Origin: an uncultured Verrucomicrobiae bacterium
GTDB lineage: Bacteria > Verrucomicrobiota > Verrucomicrobiia > Chthoniobacterales > JAFAMB01
NCBI GenBank assembly: GCA_963813025.1
Contig: CAWEXO010000013.1
Coordinates: forward strand, 288,001 to 352,000
Length of the DNA stretch: 64,000 bases
Direction: 5' to 3'
The position numbers and the translations under genes are program-made. Numbering within the stretch: the stretch's first letter is position 1; each line of letters starts with the position of its first letter. Shown piece after piece: positions 33,580 to 41,342 of this stretch. The notes below the pieces were generated by a model, which saw only the letters and a list, made by a program, of their open reading frames with translations, ran no database searches and had not been told where the DNA came from.

Positions 33580-34120
33580 GGGGTAACTTGCCTATTCGTG
33601 CGATATTGTACGTTAAGGAGCGAACCGTTGAGGTTTGAGACGCAAAGGCCGGAGGCGGCTGTTCCGGACGCCACCGTCTGGCCGCCAGACATAGTCCCCG
33701 GTCAGGTTGATGTGCTCCCAACCTAGTGGTGAGAGATGGGTCAGCAACTCTTCGGAAGGGTTTGCACGGACTCGCTTAAGCTTCTGGATAGCTTTTTCCA
33801 GGTAGACGTGTTCCAGAGCACAATCGCGGCAACAACCAAGCTGAGGCCATTTGTCCAGTGCTGTTGGTTCTCGTAGGTTCGGTCTCGCAGTTCGCCGAGA
33901 CGATTGAAAAACACAGCCCGCGCCAAAAAATCGAGAGTGAAGATCGTTCGCTCCAACCTTCCCAGCTCGCGCAGCGCAGTTGCGAGTCGGTTTTGACGTG
34001 GGTAGGCAGCGAGCTTGCGAAGGATAGTTGAAGCGGTCACGGTTCCTTGCTTGATCGAAGTAGCAAGCCGGAGGAGATCTTCCCAATCGATTCTCCGGGT
34101 ACGATTCAAACGCCGCATCG
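33580..34120 (-). mobile_element. Tn3-family remnant: 38-bp terminal IR plus degraded transposase 3' end
   Basis: IR ggggtaacttgcctattcgtgcgatattgtacgttaag at 33580-33617; [25 protein letters not shown] and HLSPLGWEHINLTGDYVW. Confidence 0.9.
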
Positions 34121-34320
34121 GCTGATCCGTCCCGAATTTCTGCCGATTCGTCATACTTCGCCACTCCCGAATCGACAATCCGTGCGACCGGACGTAGGCA
34201 TACGCTAGCTCCATCTGACAAGTTTGATCTGTCTCAAAGAGCGTTGTTTGCGCGACCGATGATTCTTATCAAAAAACTAGCGACCCCAAGGTATCACCCG
34301 AAGGACATCAGAAAGCCCCA

Positions 34321-36011: not shown

Positions 36012-36260
36012 TCAGAGTTCCTTCGACCGCATTGGGACGCCCCATTGCTCGCAACGGTTCTTGAGCCAGTTTTGAAATTGCTGGGCGATATCGCGCAGAC
36101 GGTTGCGAGTAACACGCTCTGCGTTGCGATACGCATTAAAGAAACCGATCACTCGCTCGGGTTGTTGGAAAGGCTAAATCAATCCGTTTAAGAGAATTCG
36201 ATCAAAACAACGGTAGGCAAATTTGATGCTACTTTTATGGTGTTCGTAGAAGGTGTTCAT
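36012..36260 (-). pseudogene. N-terminal remnant of an unclassified, probably mobile-element-encoded protein
   Basis: MNTFYEHHKSSIKFAYRCFDRILLNGLI*PFQQPERVIGFF..., with in-frame TAG at 36174-36176 and GGAG upstream; family recognised from memory only. Confidence 0.55.
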
Positions 36261-36365
36261 CGCTTGCTCCTGCGTGGTCAGATACCAGGAACATACCGCT
36301 CTGAGCTCCTTCTACGACACCACTTACGCACCCGGAACGGATATCAAGGGCGAAGCCCTTGGCTC

Positions 36366-37757
36366 CTAAGAAACTAAATCCGTGGCTGGGTCTAGAGGCG
36401 TGAGTTGGAGTCCGAATTCTTTGGCTCGTCGGCTGAGATCGTGAAGTAGGCGGTCTTTGTATTTTTTCTCGTAGTAGAGTTGCCCTTGCTCGACATAGGC
36501 AGCTCCGAACTTGAGCATGCGATAGAACAAGCGTGCCAGTTTATGAGCTCCGGCGTTGATGGCGGTGGGTGCCCCCAATCGGGCTTTGATGCGGCGGATA
36601 AAAGCGCCGATGGCCGTCTTACTTTGCATGGCTCCTTGGGCCGCCAGCCGGAACATGGCCGCCGCGCGATTCTTGGTTTTTCTGGGGCTGGAACTGAGCA
36701 GTTTGCCGCCGCTGATGCGATTGTCCGGACAGAGTTTAAGCCAGGAGCAAAAGTGTTTTTCGCTTTTCCAACAGGTCATGTCTAAACCCGTTTCCGAAAT
36801 GATGACTTCCACCGCCAAGGTGCTCAAGCCAGGCAACTGACTCAGATCGACACCACAAACGCTGGCCAGATGCGCTCGGCGCTGCAGGGCTAGGCGAACT
36901 TGGGCCGACCGTGCTTGGGCCGCCCCGCTTTGCTCGAGGGCTTGCTCCAAATCTAGTTTAGTGTCGAATTGCTCAAGTTGTTGCTCAATCTTGCTTTCGC
37001 AGGCGGTGATCTTGAGCTGGTAGGTGTCATAGAGTTCCAGGGCCGTTTGCAAGGCGAAGAGATGCTCGGCTCGGTAATCTCCCTGTAAGGCTTTGACGAT
37101 CTGATCAGTGGATGCTTTCACTTGGGGGTGTTTCATCTGGGCAAGCTTGAGCGGATTGCGTTCTCCGGCCAAAATCGCCCGAATCATCGCCATGCCACTA
37201 TAACCGGTGATGTCGCTCAACACGCGGTGCACTTGGATATTCATTTCGGTTAAGGCCTTCTGCATGCGTAACACATGGCTGCTGCAGTCCTTAACCAAGG
37301 TGTCGCGCAGGCGCAGGAAGCTGCGCAAGACGCAGACCTCGTCCTTGGGTCGGAACGAGCCGTTTAAAAGACCAAAGGTGTGGAGTTGTTGAAGCCATTG
37401 GCAGTCCGAGACGTCGCTTTTGCGTCCAGGCAGATTCTTGACATGAGCTGCGTTGACCAATTTTACCTCCAACCCTCTCTGCTCCAGAATCTGGAACACC
37501 GGTATCCAATAAACCCCCGTTGATTCCATCACTACGGTCTCAATGTGGTGTTCGCTCAGCCAGTCAGCCATCCGCTGCAGATCGCTCGTAAAAGGGCCAA
37601 ACTTGCGCACCGTTTCTGAGCCGCGGTCTTCGGGAATGGCCACCAGGTGAAAATTCGCCCCGATATCGATTCCTGCGGCCTTGAGATTGATCCGTTCCAG
37701 AACACTCCGGTGAGTTTTTGATTTGTTCTTTCGCTTGGTCGTGGTTTTCTTTGCCAT
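36366..37757 (-). CDS. IS110 family transposase (DEDD recombinase)
   Basis: AGIDIG, VMESTGVYW, RKSDVSD and L.P....SGGK catalytic Ser motif. Confidence 0.95.
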   Translation of the reverse strand: MAKKTTTKRKNKSKTHRSVLERINLKAAGIDIGANFHLVAIPEDRGSETVRKFGPFTSDLQRMADWLSEHHIETVVMESTGVYWIPVFQILEQRGLEVKLVNAAHVKNLPGRKSDVSDCQWLQQLHTFGLLNGSFRPKDEVCVLRSFLRLRDTLVKDCSSHVLRMQKALTEMNIQVHRVLSDITGYSGMAMIRAILAGERNPLKLAQMKHPQVKASTDQIVKALQGDYRAEHLFALQTALELYDTYQLKITACESKIEQQLEQFDTKLDLEQALEQSGAAQARSAQVRLALQRRAHLASVCGVDLSQLPGLSTLAVEVIISETGLDMTCWKSEKHFCSWLKLCPDNRISGGKLLSSSPRKTKNRAAAMFRLAAQGAMQSKTAIGAFIRRIKARLGAPTAINAGAHKLARLFYRMLKFGAAYVEQGQLYYEKKYKDRLLHDLSRRAKEFGLQLTPLDPATDLVS

Positions 37758-38015
37758 ACCTCTCTTGGGTTAGATGTTGTTCTTGCTTTCACACTGCAGC
37801 GCATCGGCCCGAGTTGGTAGATAGAGAGAAATCTCCTAAACAGGATAGCTCCAGATCGGCAAACAACCCGATCTGGAGCTTCGCTAATGCAACAACCAAA
37901 ACGCTCGGAACCAAACTAGCTATCGGGCATAAAGCTCCAATGCCACACCGGTCTTAACTGCCGACCCACTGCTGCCTACTTTCTACGTCGAGATGCCCAA
38001 GGCAATCAATCCAGT
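37758..38015 (-). ncRNA. Candidate IS110 bridge RNA region
   Basis: About 260 nt non-coding upstream of the transposase; 13-bp perfect stem at 37847-37880; a 7-nt match (ctcctaa, 37833-37839) to the element's own opposite end. Confidence 0.55.
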
Positions 38016-38264
38016 GTTTCTTGCCGCAAAAAGAACGCGCAGAGTTCTGGGGAACTAGTTAGTTAGCGTACAATTTTTTCCGTTTGGTGTGGTCACCCCA
38101 ACATGGGCGGCACTAGGGATTACCACACTAGCCGGAGCGCAGCTGATACTCAGCTCTTAAAGCTGGAGCCTTCTGGGCGATTTCCAGCGTTTTATCGGCG
38201 GTTTTACGCTGTTTTTCAGGGCGACCGGTACCTGGTGGATTCCGCTGTTAGTCATCGTAGACCG

Positions 38265-38942
38265 ATGAGCCAATCCGACTGGAAGCGCTCGGGCGAACCA
38301 TGTAAAGTGTCTTCCCCTCTTGTGGCGATCCGTGCCAAACCTCATTATTTTGCCTGTCCGGATTGCGATGCGCTCTTTAGCGCTCCGGAAGTCCACGAGG
38401 GCGAGCGGGTGATTTGTCCGCGGTGCGGTGCGAGGCTCTTGTCGCGCTGGCCCAACGCGGTCCATCGCGCGGCGGCGCTGGCCTTTGCGGCGGCGTTCTT
38501 TTTCATCCTGGCCAATGCCTTTCCGTTTTTGACCCTTCGGGCGGACTATCGCCAGAGTGACATGCTTCTCGCCGGAAGCGTTTTCGGCTTGGAGGAGCAG
38601 GGATTTCCTGTACTGGCCGGGATGGTTGGAGTCTTCACGCTGGCGGCTCCGAGCTTACTCATTGGTGCGCTGCTTTATGTGCTCGTGCCGCTTCTGCGCG
38701 GGCGGCGGTTGCCCTGGGCGCTGCCTTTGTGCCGCGCCATTCACGAGGCGCGGCGATGGAACATGGTGGAGGTTTTTTTGCTCGGAGCGCTCGTGAGTTT
38801 GCTCAAGCTTGGAAACCTGGCCACACTCACGTTGGGCACTTCGTTCTGGGCGTTTGTCGGACTGATCGTCTGCCTAACTGCGGCTCTGGTGGCGATTGAT
38901 CACGCAGATTTGTGGGACGAACTCGAGGCGGCGCGGCCATGA
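38265..38942 (+). CDS. pqiA: Paraquat-inducible protein A family
   Basis: ACPDCD...CPRCGA, ANAFPFL, WNMVEVFLLGALVSLLKL; start uncertain (ORF from 38103). Confidence 0.9.
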   Translation: MSQSDWKRSGEPCKVSSPLVAIRAKPHYFACPDCDALFSAPEVHEGERVICPRCGARLLSRWPNAVHRAAALAFAAAFFFILANAFPFLTLRADYRQSDMLLAGSVFGLEEQGFPVLAGMVGVFTLAAPSLLIGALLYVLVPLLRGRRLPWALPLCRAIHEARRWNMVEVFLLGALVSLLKLGNLATLTLGTSFWAFVGLIVCLTAALVAIDHADLWDELEAARP

Positions 38943-39625
38943 CATGCCACTGGGCTTCGGCGGCGGCTCGCGGTCTGGCGCGCTGCCATTCCTGCGGGCG
39001 AGTGGAGCCCGTCGAGTCGGGGCATTGCCCGCGCTGCCACGCGCCGCTGCACTTGCGCAAACAGAACTCGCTGCAGCGCACCGTCGCGCTGACGATCGGA
39101 GCAGTGTTTCTTTATTTCCCGGCAAATCTTCTGCCGGTCCTGCGCGTGGAAAGCACACTGAAAGGCACTCAGCAGAACACCATCCTGAGCGGCGTCTTGC
39201 AGTTCTGGCAGGATGGAGATTATCCTATCGCTCTCATAATTTTCGTTGCCAGCGTAATGATCCCGATCCTCAAAGTGCTCGCGATTGCGACGCTCTGCTT
39301 GGGCGCGCACCTTGGCCGCTGGCCGCAAGCAATGACGCGACTCTACCGCGTAACGGACTATATTGGACGCTGGTCAATGGTGGACGTGTTTGTTGTGGCG
39401 ATTCTTGTTGGCGTTGTCCAGCTCGGCTCCGTTATGTCGATCAACGCGGGCGAGGGTGCTTTTGCTTTTGCGGGGGTTGTGGTGCTGACGATGCTCGCGG
39501 CGCATTCGTTCGATCCGCGGTTGATCTGGGATGCGGCGGCCAAGAGCGAAGACACCCCTCTTTCTCACGTTAACACAAGCACGGATGGCGACGGGAGCGG
39601 AGACGCTTCATTTTCTCATGCCTGA
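38939..39625 (+). CDS. pqiA: Paraquat-inducible protein A family (second copy)
   Basis: CHSC...CPRC, PANLLP, IGRWSMVDVFVV, FDPRLIWD. Confidence 0.92.
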   Translation: MTCHWASAAARGLARCHSCGRVEPVESGHCPRCHAPLHLRKQNSLQRTVALTIGAVFLYFPANLLPVLRVESTLKGTQQNTILSGVLQFWQDGDYPIALIIFVASVMIPILKVLAIATLCLGAHLGRWPQAMTRLYRVTDYIGRWSMVDVFVVAILVGVVQLGSVMSINAGEGAFAFAGVVVLTMLAAHSFDPRLIWDAAAKSEDTPLSHVNTSTDGDGSGDASFSHA

Positions 39626-41342
39626 TACTGGAAGCCCGCCGCATCTCTCCGCCGCGCCGCCGGAAGCCCCGGTGAGCCGTTCGTCACGCCGCCACGGCCT
39701 TTCGCCAGTGTGGGTCATCCCTCTGGTTTCCGCGTTGCTTGGACTATGGCTGGTCTGGCGCTACTATTCGGCCAAAGGGCCGGAGATCACCGTACGTTTT
39801 GACACCGCCGAGGGTGTCATCGCGGGTAAGACGCCAGTGCTCTGCCGCAGCGTCAACATCGGCACTGTTTCGGATATCAAGCTGACCGACGACATCAAAG
39901 GCGTGATCATGACGTTCGAGATGAACCGCGAGGCGAGCCGGTTGCTGGTCGAGGACACGCAAATCTGGGCCGTGCGGGCACGCTATTCGGCGGCGGGTAT
40001 CTCCGGATTGAACACGCTCGTTTCTGGAAACTACATCGAGCTTCAGCCAGGCGTTTCCAAAAAACCGCGTCGAGATTTCGTCGGTCTGGAAAACCCGCCG
40101 CCGACTCCGCCAGGCGTCCCGGGCATTCGTTTCAAACTCGTCGCCCAGCAGGCCGGCGGAGTCGGCTCTGGCACTTCGATTATTTATAAAGGCATCAGTG
40201 TCGGCAAGCTCGAGACGCGCGTCTTCCATCCTGAGGTTGGCGAGGTGGAGTTTAATGCGTTCATCGAAGGCCAATACGCACGGCTCGTAAACGAGCAGAC
40301 GCGCTTTTACAATTCCGGAGGGCTCGATCTCAAAGTCGGAGCGGAAGGCATCCAACTGCGTACCGGGACTTTTGAATCGCTCTTGAGTTCGAGCGTGACC
40401 TTTACCGAGCCGGACTCCAAGCAGCTGCGCGCGCAGCCCATCGCCGAAGGCCACACTTTTGTCCTCTACAGTAGCTTGAACGAGGCGCGCGAAGCCGACT
40501 TTAATCCGACCTTGCCCTACCTGCTGCTCTTTACCGCCAGCGTACGCGGTCTAAACCCGCAAGCGCCCGTCGAATTCCGCGGTATCCGCATCGGCACCGT
40601 CGTGGGTGCGTCCTTCAATTACCTGCCCGGTGATCCAGAGCACCGCGTGCCGGTGCTGATCAAAATCGACCCCGCCGTGCTCGCGGAGCAACCCGGCGGT
40701 GATCCCGAGGTCGCGCAAGCGTTCATCGCACAGAGCGTGAAAAACGGACTCCGGGCCAGCTTGAAAACTGGCAGCCTGCTGACCGGCCAGCTTTTCGTAG
40801 AACTCGATTTTCAAAAAAACGCGCCGCCGGCGACCCTCGCGAGCATCGGCGGTTACGATGTGCTGCCAACTGTTCCCGCCTCCGGCTTGGATGAGCTACA
40901 GGAAAGAGTCGCCGCGCTGTTGGACAAATTCAACGCGCTCCCCGTGGAGAAAACGGTGAACAACGCCAACGACGCATTGGCAGCGGTGAAAGGCGCGGCG
41001 GCAAATCTCGACAAGGTCACCGGCGCGGACAGCGCGTTAGACAAAACTTTGAAAAATGCCCAAAAACTTACTAGCGAACTTTCGGGCAACCAAGACATCG
41101 GCGTGACGTTGCGGAACCTGCGTGTCACGTCGGATGAGCTCAAAGTGACGGTAAAAGACTTGAGCACGCAGTTTTCGAAAGTCGGCCAAAACCTCACCGA
41201 GGCGACAGACACGGTGAAGCGCCAGCCTTGGCGGCTGATCTGGCCCTCGACCAAAAAATATGCAGGCGAGAGCCCGGTCGTGCCGTTGCAACCGCAACCG
41301 ACACGGTCACCGCGCAGAACCCTCCCGTCGCGGAATCGTTAG
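39618..41342 (+). CDS. pqiB: PqiB family MCE/MlaD-repeat protein
   Basis: SPVWVIP, GPEITVRF..AEG, GLNTLVSGNYI, SVRGL...APVEFRGI, GLRASLKTGSLLTG. Confidence 0.92.
   Translation: MPDTGSPPHLSAAPPEAPVSRSSRRHGLSPVWVIPLVSALLGLWLVWRYYSAKGPEITVRFDTAEGVIAGKTPVLCRSVNIGTVSDIKLTDDIKGVIMTFEMNREASRLLVEDTQIWAVRARYSAAGISGLNTLVSGNYIELQPGVSKKPRRDFVGLENPPPTPPGVPGIRFKLVAQQAGGVGSGTSIIYKGISVGKLETRVFHPEVGEVEFNAFIEGQYARLVNEQTRFYNSGGLDLKVGAEGIQLRTGTFESLLSSSVTFTEPDSKQLRAQPIAEGHTFVLYSSLNEAREADFNPTLPYLLLFTASVRGLNPQAPVEFRGIRIGTVVGASFNYLPGDPEHRVPVLIKIDPAVLAEQPGGDPEVAQAFIAQSVKNGLRASLKTGSLLTGQLFVELDFQKNAPPATLASIGGYDVLPTVPASGLDELQERVAALLDKFNALPVEKTVNNANDALAAVKGAAANLDKVTGADSALDKTLKNAQKLTSELSGNQDIGVTLRNLRVTSDELKVTVKDLSTQFSKVGQNLTEATDTVKRQPWRLIWPSTKKYAGESPVVPLQPQPTRSPRRTLPSRNR

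What the first reader, a model, noticed from the sequence alone, without database searches (positions are those of the whole stretch)
37758..38058. Structured non-coding end of an intact IS110: candidate bridge RNA with a donor-matching guide
Seen: about 260 nt of non-coding DNA precedes the transposase ATG. It carries a perfect 13-bp stem (37847-37880). On the coding strand it also contains TTAGGAG (37833-37839), which is identical to the element's opposite end (GTTTC-TTAGGAG-C, 36362-36374). Known: IS110-group elements such as IS621 express a bridge RNA from the non-coding end, with loops that pair with donor and target DNA. Inferred: TTAGGAG is a donor guide, the core dinucleotide may be GC, and the circle junction would read GTTTCTTAGGA-GC-GGCAAGAAAC. 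TTGTTGC near 37889-37895 is a weaker target-guide candidate. This could be an uncharacterised programmable recombinase with its own specificity.
Basis: partly seen in the sequence, partly recalled or inferred. Interest (0 to 1): 0.8.

Follow-up and report, generated by a model that had tools for sequence, protein, structure and literature searches.

The report
Bridge RNA reading folded-back donor
This multi-copy jumping gene carries a predicted guide ("bridge") RNA whose four short guides match its landing site and its own ends, but one guide matches a spot about 25 letters inside the left end, so it likely recognises its own DNA as one strand folded back on itself rather than as the double helix used by the known gene-editing versions.

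Summary
Observation confirmed; interpretation half right. The IS110 has 13 copies and five 122-bp mini-copies in its genome. These fix the core as AG (not GC), the left end at 38056 (not about 38023) and the junction as GTTTCTTAGG-AG-TTCCCC.

Across 97 homologue clusters a conserved two-loop RNA carries four guides:
- TTAGGAG is the left donor guide (6.8/7 vs 5.0 permuted).
- TAGCTAG (37916-37922) is the left target guide (80 of 91 match at 6/7 or better, vs 7 permuted).
- The right target guide is loose.
- TTGTTGC is not a target guide. It matches the left end's interior, 3 nt before a 7-bp subterminal repeat (4.2/7 vs 2.05; 28 of 31 informative sister pairs), and not the canonical right-donor site.

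Both donor guides therefore pair with the bottom strand, and the two end repeats fold that strand so the sites face each other. Likely mechanism: a fold-back donor, untested. Closest named system: ISPpu9/MITEPpu9. I did not find this reading in 7 paper searches. This scan reported it before, on other genomes and on another piece of this genome (e1-8459390), and those notes gave me the lead.

The parts
36363..38056 (-). Complete IS110-family element with both AG cores (1692 bp counting one core)
   Evidence: Flanks of 13 copies diverge at these points; empty site CTAACT-AG-CCAAGGG at G000:C9 about 193,600 and similar empty tips in L209, L211, L218
38057..38061 (-). Left target half-site TAACT (host side; 6/7 to the guide, G:T-compatible)
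38055..38056 (-). Left core dinucleotide AG
38032..38048 (-). Left-end DNA hairpin AGAAC-N7-GTTCT, between the core and the inner site
   Evidence: Sequence. Family spacers fold better than host flank: mean -5.5 vs -2.3 kcal/mol; z below -1.5 in 27 of 77 vs 6 of 74
38026..38032 (-). Inner left-end site TTTTTGC (TTGTTGC in the mini-copies and the 88% copy), matched by the displaced donor guide
38016..38022 (-). Left subterminal inverted repeat AAGAAAC, 32 nt inside the core
   Evidence: Complement of the right-end GTTTCTT; 19 of 23 double changes in sister pairs keep the pairing (the repeats were picked for complementarity)
37796..37972 (-). Predicted bridge RNA: outer helix closing a three-way junction with a target loop and a donor loop
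   Evidence: 55 homologues: 81.9% of cells paired, 29 of 37 pairs with double changes, 0 of 500 shuffles as high; slid controls 30-48%
37942..37948 (-). Right target guide slot GTGTGGC (loose)
   Evidence: Family 2.46/5 vs 1.35 permuted, n=83; this genome's 15 right flanks average only 1.4/5
37916..37922 (-). Left target guide TAGCTAG (5 nt plus core)
   Evidence: 10 of 14 host-side left flanks match 7/7 and 13 of 14 match 6/7 or better; family 80 of 91 vs 7 permuted
37889..37895 (-). Displaced right-donor guide TTGTTGC; matches the inner left-end site, not the bases beside the core
37847..37880 (-). 13-bp hairpin capping the donor loop (length varies in the family)
   Evidence: helix 6, 97% paired
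37833..37839 (-). Left donor guide TTAGGAG (5 nt plus core)
36366..37757 (-). 463-aa DEDD recombinase: D31, E78, D115, D118, and S349 in the RISGGK motif
   Evidence: Pfam PF01548 and PF02371; NCBIfam NF033542 at 247 bits, cut-off 140; alignment; only PDB hit is IS621, E 4e-5
36368..36374 (-). Right subterminal inverted repeat GTTTCTT (overlaps the stop codon and the first 2 nt of the left-donor site)
36363..36369 (-). Left-donor half-site TTAGG plus right core AG

Best explanation
This is an intact, recently amplified IS110 element of the ISPpu9 lineage whose left end likely makes a bridge RNA of about 175 nt, predicted to aim the recombinase at TAGCT-AG sites and likely to grip the element's own ends on a single bottom strand folded back through its two 7-bp end repeats.

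Shown by sequence comparison: the ends; the AG core; the two-loop RNA structure; left target and left donor guides of 5 nt plus core; a loose right target guide; and a fourth guide that tracks a site 23-29 nt inside the left end and not the bases next to the core.

Inferred: the RNA is transcribed from an internal promoter after the left repeat. Both donor guides are identical to the top strand, so both pair with the bottom strand. Pairing of the GTTTCTT and AAGAAAC repeats, with the left-end hairpin, makes a stem-bubble-stem in which the two guided sites lie opposite each other like a pre-melted donor. This could form in a single-stranded circle, as a cruciform, or across the two ends of an exposed strand of the integrated copy. 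Only the bottom strand of that fold carries the core, so exchange would be on one strand at AG and be finished by replication, much like integron attC recombination (recalled). The 122-bp mini-copies keep these cis parts and would move in trans.
For: - Ends, core and junction come from 13 copies, 5 mini-copies, 3 tandem junctions and empty sites.
- Left donor guide vs right end: 6.8/7 vs 5.01 +/- 0.08 permuted, n=97. 43 of 43 double changes in sister pairs are concordant (on the 93 rows kept for a 6/7 or better match, so partly circular).
- Left target guide: 80 of 91 vs 7 permuted.
- Fourth guide vs inner site: 4.16/7 vs 2.05 +/- 0.12, with offsets -6 to +6 giving 1.2-2.3. Identity is confined to the slot. 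In 46 disjoint sister pairs the element's own site wins 28 to 3 (15 ties, p 5e-6), and 34 of 82 double changes are concordant vs 2 opposite.
- No match to the canonical right donor: 0.95-1.52/5 vs 1.06-1.32 permuted over five shifts. No scanned RNA column exceeds expected complementarity to those bases by more than 0.16.
- The end repeats covary and the spacer is a hairpin despite variable sequence.
- The mini-copies, and a 57-bp mini-element in L005, retain the left end just through the repeat.
- Single-stranded or copy-out intermediates are reported for IS621 and CazIS110 (10.64898/2026.08.31.748434 and 10.1101/2025.10.25.684509; abstracts and Discussions read).
Against: - No experiment; the RNA itself was not observed.
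- The fourth-guide match is imperfect: 38 of 93 rows reach 5/7 or more, and the AA-core subgroup averages 2.8/7 (n=14). The best register is -1 in 20 of 93. This copy matches 6/7.
- Wobble-compatible mismatches are only mildly enriched (40 vs 26).
- Top and bottom strands fold equally well (mean z -1.8 vs -1.9), so energy does not pick the strand, and that test is inflated because the repeats were chosen for complementarity. This copy's own minimum-energy fold is not the clean bubble.
- In ISPpu9, mutating the left-end palindrome still gave normal minicircles, while mutating bases right after the left AG disturbed end recognition (PMC12288879 section 17).
- CazIS110 is reported to excise and insert mainly the top strand, whereas this model needs the bottom strand.
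Confidence: 0.6

Rival explanations
1. Double-stranded donor with a long bubble or loop. Both donor guides pair with the bottom strand at sites about 30 nt apart in a duplex circle. The end repeats are protein-binding sites and the hairpin only helps open the DNA.
For: Fits all the guide covariation. The ISPpu9 palindrome mutant still circularises. Strand energies do not discriminate.
Against: The repeats vary in sequence (11 different 5-mers in 97 rows) yet keep mutual complementarity, which favours base pairing over protein read-out. The inner site sits at a fixed distance from the repeat, while its distance from the core varies (spacer 29-41 nt in 76 of 77).
Confidence: 0.2
2. The displaced guide acts only in excision or end synapsis, holding the left end of the integrated element next to the right end. 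Insertion then uses only the left donor and left target guides (half-match).
For: The same fold can form across both ends of an integrated strand (inference). Donor-only and half-match reactions are reported for IS621. Left guides are strict and right guides loose.
Against: Nothing in the sequence separates the two steps. The ISPpu9 hairpin was dispensable for circles, which points to a role at insertion instead.
Confidence: 0.13
3. The fourth slot is not a guide. Its likeness to the left end is shared descent or composition, and the RNA works with three guides or is mainly a regulatory 5' leader like the ISPpu9 5'-UTR.
For: Imperfect match; the first nucleotide of the slot also pairs within the RNA stem. 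The ISPpu9 leader regulates translation (PMC8450116 passages).
Against: Identity stops at the slot borders, survives the sister-pair control, and lies in the position equivalent to the right target guide, between the same flanking motifs.
Confidence: 0.05
4. One reading: GC core, left end near 38023, TTGTTGC as target guide.
For: The repeats AAGAAAC and GTTTCTT do exist.
Against: All copies share 32 further bases of left end; empty sites and tandem junctions give AG; flanks match TAGCTAG.
Confidence: 0.01

Closest known systems
ISPpu9 / MITEPpu9 of Pseudomonas putida (PMC12288879: passages, sections 17 and 18 part 1, supplement part 1; PMC8450116: passages)
   Same: Same transposase motifs, judged by eye from the ISPpu9 sequence in a supplement of PMC11187229 (no alignment run). 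AG core. Left box with an internal palindrome; right box of the form GTTNN-5 nt-AG; the two boxes carry complementary 5-mers. Internal promoter with its start about 84 nt inside the end (the predicted RNA here starts about 82 nt in). Non-autonomous mini-elements in tandem.
   Different: The main text maps no guides (0 hits for LTG, LDG, donor-binding, target-binding) and describes the group as lacking inverted repeats. ISPpu9 targets REP sequences; this one targets TAGCT-AG. An antisense RNA was not tested here.
IS621 / ISCro4 bridge RNAs (PMC11208160: section 7, passages, supplement search; PMC11208158, PMC13626964, 10.1101/2025.05.14.653916: passages)
   Same: DEDD plus serine recombinase; RNA in the left end; target loop and donor loop; left guides pair with the bottom strand and include the core.
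   Different: 463 vs about 328 aa. Core AG vs CT. Left guides 7 vs 8-9 nt. The right guide comes before the left guide in each loop. The right target guide usually pairs only one core base (CA opposite AG in 55 of 83 rows). The right donor guide reads an internal left-end site on the bottom strand rather than the top strand beside the core. 7-bp rather than 2-3-bp subterminal repeats.
IS1111-group elements and seekRNAs (PMC11187229: section 6 and passages)
   Same: Subterminal inverted repeats of 7 bp; the guide complementary to the top strand precedes the bottom-strand guide.
   Different: The non-coding region is upstream, the protein is far longer than 330-350 aa, and the left repeat lies 32 nt inside, behind a hairpin.
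ISPpu10 target stem-loop (10.64898/2026.03.19.712850; abstract and outline only)
   Same: DNA secondary structure contributes to recognition by an IS110 recombinase.
   Different: There the hairpin is in the target; here it is in the donor, and an RNA guide is relocated to read it.
Integron attC sites and IS200/IS605 ends (recalled, not from a call)
   Same: A mobile DNA recognised as a folded single strand.
   Different: Protein-read or DNA-guided, unrelated enzymes, no RNA guide.

Membership tests
IS110 family | DEDD RuvC-like domain plus Tnp domain with catalytic serine | tested here: met
IS110 family | Short core at both ends, one copy in the empty site, no further target duplication | tested here: met
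   AG
IS110 family | Circular intermediate | not testable with these tools
   Only contigs were available and they showed no joint; tandem junctions are indirect
IS621-type bridge RNA | Conserved structured RNA with two guide loops in the left end | tested here: met
IS621-type bridge RNA | Left and right target guides covary with the target | tested here: met
   Left strong; right weak in the family and near chance in this genome
IS621-type bridge RNA | Left donor guide covaries with the right end plus core | tested here: met
IS621-type bridge RNA | Right donor guide pairs with the top strand next to the core | tested here: not met
   No signal at the canonical site; signal at the inner left-end site
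IS621-type bridge RNA | Left guide precedes right guide in each loop | tested here: not met
   Order is right then left
IS621-type bridge RNA | RNA is expressed, binds the recombinase and is needed for recombination | not testable with these tools
   Needs experiment
IS1111 group | Subterminal inverted repeats of 7-17 bp | tested here: met
   7 bp and covarying, but the left copy is 32 nt inside
IS1111 group | Long non-coding region downstream and a 330-350-aa transposase | tested here: not met
   Upstream; 463 aa
ISPpu9 lineage | Transposase relatedness | tested here: inconclusive
   Shared motifs by eye only; no alignment or tree with ISPpu9 itself
ISPpu9 lineage | AG core, left box with palindrome, short right box, tandem mini-elements | tested here: met
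ISPpu9 lineage | Antisense RNA over the leader | not tested
   No RNA data

The most novel reading that the evidence does not exclude
A large IS110 lineage (at least 7,996 protein clusters at E 1e-60 or better, not all checked for the RNA) has rewired the bridge RNA so that the donor is a folded single strand. End repeats and a hairpin build a pre-melted bubble, both donor guides read one strand, and the enzyme exchanges one strand only. It would be an RNA-programmed inserter of single-stranded DNA whose cis needs fit in about 55 bp, and it would explain what IS110/IS1111 subterminal repeats are for.
Probability: 0.5. Interest if true: 0.85.

Novelty: new variant of a known kind. Interest (0 to 1): 0.64.

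Why it matters
Bridge recombinases are being developed as genome editors on the model of IS621, which reads a double-stranded donor. A natural lineage that reads a folded single strand would change how donors and guides must be designed. [quoted passage not shown] All four guides and the minimal ends are mapped here, so the tests are simple compensatory mutations. The short effective target (about 7 bp; 112 TAGCTAG and 48 TAACTAG sites in this genome) makes the natural enzyme a poor precision tool as it stands.

Tried and rejected
- Rfam at E up to 5: no match.
- Sigma-70 scan: 0 promoter-like sites. A TTGATT-18-TAGAAA pair at 38009-37980 is by eye only, and no conserved -10 column emerged in 92 homologues.
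- Sequencing runs: no RNA holder listed. The one DNA holder, X1, is contigs and may be the source sample. Its contigs stop at 38056 and give loose ends at 36363/36364, one reading like the empty site. No circle joint was seen, which shows nothing.
- My first reading, that the family lacks right guides, was dropped.
- The canonical right-donor match was rejected. The idea that right flanks start with GAG was rejected by the empty site.
- Helix 5 of my structure (outer donor-loop stem) reached only 42% paired on the sequence alignment. It is seen by eye in many rows but is not established.
- Rows dropped: 204 loci; 202 with a tblastn hit; 172 near-full matches; 163 with enough upstream DNA; 155 anchored; 115 clusters at 90% RNA identity; 97 kept (9 weak repeat, 6 no repeat pair, 3 no anchors). 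Subsets of 91, 83, 77 and 93 are as stated. The RNA alignment used 55 of 92 segments.
- Paper searches. None of the listings, passages or sections seen describes a donor guide reading inside the left end.
- Unseen material that could bear on novelty: figure images (Durrant Extended Data Fig. 10c), picture-only PDFs, the cut Supplementary Table file, bioRxiv supplements (for example Fig. S12 of 10.64898/2026.10.21.760802, of which I read section 8 and passages), and subscription papers.
- No structure prediction was run.

Full report
OBSERVATION. A perfect 13-bp stem lies at 37847-37880. TTAGGAG lies at 37839-37833 and at the right end 36369-36363, and TTGTTGC at 37895-37889. The 463-aa ORF at 37757-36366 is unbroken and carries both IS110 Pfam domains and NF033542 above its cut-off. 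D31, E78, D115 and D118 are invariant in 11 aligned relatives, and S349 sits in RISGGK. The only solved relative is IS621, at E 4e-5. Rfam has no match.

ENDS AND TARGET. The genome holds 13 copies: 12 at 98.5-100% identity (two interrupted) and one at 87.6%. It also holds five mini-copies of about 122 bp with the same ends and no RNA or ORF. All 17 left ends found start AG-TTC(C/G)CCAGAAC and all 18 right ends finish GTTTCTTAGG-AG. Three mini-copies sit head-to-tail behind another mini-copy or a full copy and show the joined ends directly; a relative (L005) has two full copies in tandem. The empty site of this insertion reads CTAACT-AG-CCAAGGG, with similar empty tips in three loci from other genomes. 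So the core is AG, at 38056-38055 and 36364-36363. Of 14 host-side left flanks, 10 read TAGCT, 2 TAACT, 1 TAGCA and 1 GGCTT; right flanks vary.

RNA. I gathered 204 loci and reduced them to 115 clusters and 97 usable rows; the drops are listed under Tried and rejected. The leader aligns to a conserved pattern of two similar units. RNAalifold finds the two stems of the target loop and the inner stem of the donor loop. With my added outer helices, 81.9% of cells pair and 29 of 37 pairs show double changes, against 69.6% in shuffles and 30-48% in slid controls. One helix is weak, at 42%. The shuffle control ignores kinship. The 13-bp stem is the variable cap of the donor loop.

GUIDES. The slot holding TTAGGAG matches the 7 bases that follow GTTNN at each element's right end: 6.8 of 7 against 5.0 permuted, with the right end located through the repeat pair and a bonus for an AG or AA core. 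The slot holding TAGCTAG finds a 6/7 or better match in its own left-end window in 80 of 91 rows, against 7 permuted (maximum 17). The slot before the first hairpin is complementary to the right flank, 2.46 of 5 against 1.35 (n=83), a loose right target guide. In this genome it is near chance, 1.4 of 5 over 15 flanks.

The equivalent slot of the donor loop (TTGTTGC here) shows no complementarity to the bases after the left core, and no scanned RNA column does. Instead it is identical to the top strand 3 nt before the left repeat: 4.16 of 7 against 2.05, with offsets giving 1.2-2.3. Identity rises only inside the slot. On a protein tree, in 46 disjoint sister pairs, each RNA fits its own element better in 28 pairs and worse in 3; 34 of 82 double changes are concordant against 2 opposite, and 5-12 at shifted registers. 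I looked for this site after reading earlier notes of this scan. The tests are my own.

MECHANISM. Both donor guides have top-strand sense, so by the IS621 rule (PMC11208160 section 7) both pair with the bottom strand. The ends carry a 7-bp inverted repeat that varies between elements but stays complementary. The spacer between left core and left repeat (29-41 nt in 76 of 77) folds into a hairpin more often than host flank does. Folding the joined bottom strand gives repeat stem, open bubble and hairpin, with the two guided sites on opposite sides of the bubble, in most of the 12 printed examples. This copy's own minimum-energy fold is less clean, and the top strand folds as well as the bottom. 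The mini-copies keep the left end just through the repeat, and a 57-bp mini-element in L005 is little more than these parts. I infer a folded single-strand donor with exchange on the core-bearing bottom strand (confidence 0.6). That the RNA is a bridge RNA with a displaced fourth guide I put at about 0.9.

Against the model: the match is imperfect and weak in the AA-core subgroup. An ISPpu9 mutant of the left palindrome still made circles, while bases next to the left AG mattered. CazIS110 favours the top strand. Nothing has been measured for this element.

COMPARISON. The closest named system is ISPpu9 with MITEPpu9: shared protein motifs by eye, AG core, the same end layout, an internal promoter at a similar distance and tandem mini-elements. 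Its guides are not mapped in that paper's main text. The element works like an IS621 bridge system but fails two defining features, the position of the right donor guide and the guide order. It shares the repeats and guide order of IS1111 elements but not their gene layout or protein length. Single-stranded circles and half-match reactions for IS621, tandem growth of IS110 loci (10.64898/2026.08.14.744561, passages) and a target stem-loop in ISPpu10 are in print. A donor guide reading inside the left end was not found in seven searches, with the gaps noted under Tried and rejected. TIGR-like paired CCG/UGG boxes flank the guides (PMC12045711 passages); this is a resemblance only.

PRIOR NOTES AND VERDICT. 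This scan has reported the same fold-back reading on several other genomes and on another piece of this genome. Those are AI notes and not independent support. Verdict: a real, well-supported bridge-RNA candidate with all guides mapped, a new variant of a known kind. Interest 0.64, or 0.85 if the folded single-strand mechanism holds.

Noticed in passing
window 36034-36364 (- strand); G000:C9 about 191,830-193,600; G000:C14 332,936-334,702; L209, L211, L212, L218: This copy sits in the very tip of a different element of about 1.77 kb, truncated here. It starts CTAGCC, appears to insert at TAA, and encodes a protein of 464 aa or more with no Pfam match at E 0.1. At least 2 of the 13 IS110 copies hit this tip, whose junction CTAA-CTAG creates the target.
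   Followed up: partly
G000:C13 343,107-343,230; C14 104,508-104,753 and 36,986-37,222: Five non-autonomous mini-copies of about 122 bp: one single, one tandem pair, and one pair behind a full copy. They carry the perfect TTGTTGC inner site and resemble the 88% copy more than the main copies.
   Followed up: yes
L005, L022, L025, L030, L033, L038, L117, L123 and others: In 12 of 97 clusters the target guide equals a common donor end of the family, such as TTAGGAG. In at least 8 the left flank looks like another IS110 right end: elements that target sibling elements.
   Followed up: partly
L075, L145, L157, L161, L163-L165, L169, L175, L179, L181, L185, L186, L198: A subgroup with core AA has an A-rich target guide and inserts in runs of A inside coding sequence, which resemble the IS3-family frameshift signal (recalled, not tested). 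Core and guides change together.
   Followed up: no
L005:2134-2190: A 57-bp mini-element consisting of the left end, a few bases and a right end lies directly before two tandem full copies.
   Followed up: partly
G000:C9 about 193,600-193,920 and 191,660-191,830, and many other places: A repeat of about 80-170 bp with dozens of partial copies genome-wide flanks the neighbouring element; not identified.
   Followed up: no
window 38103-41342 (+) and 33613-34221 (-): A pqiA-pqiA-pqiB (MlaD) operon follows the left end, and a Tn3-family transposase fragment lies 2 kb beyond the right end.
   Followed up: no
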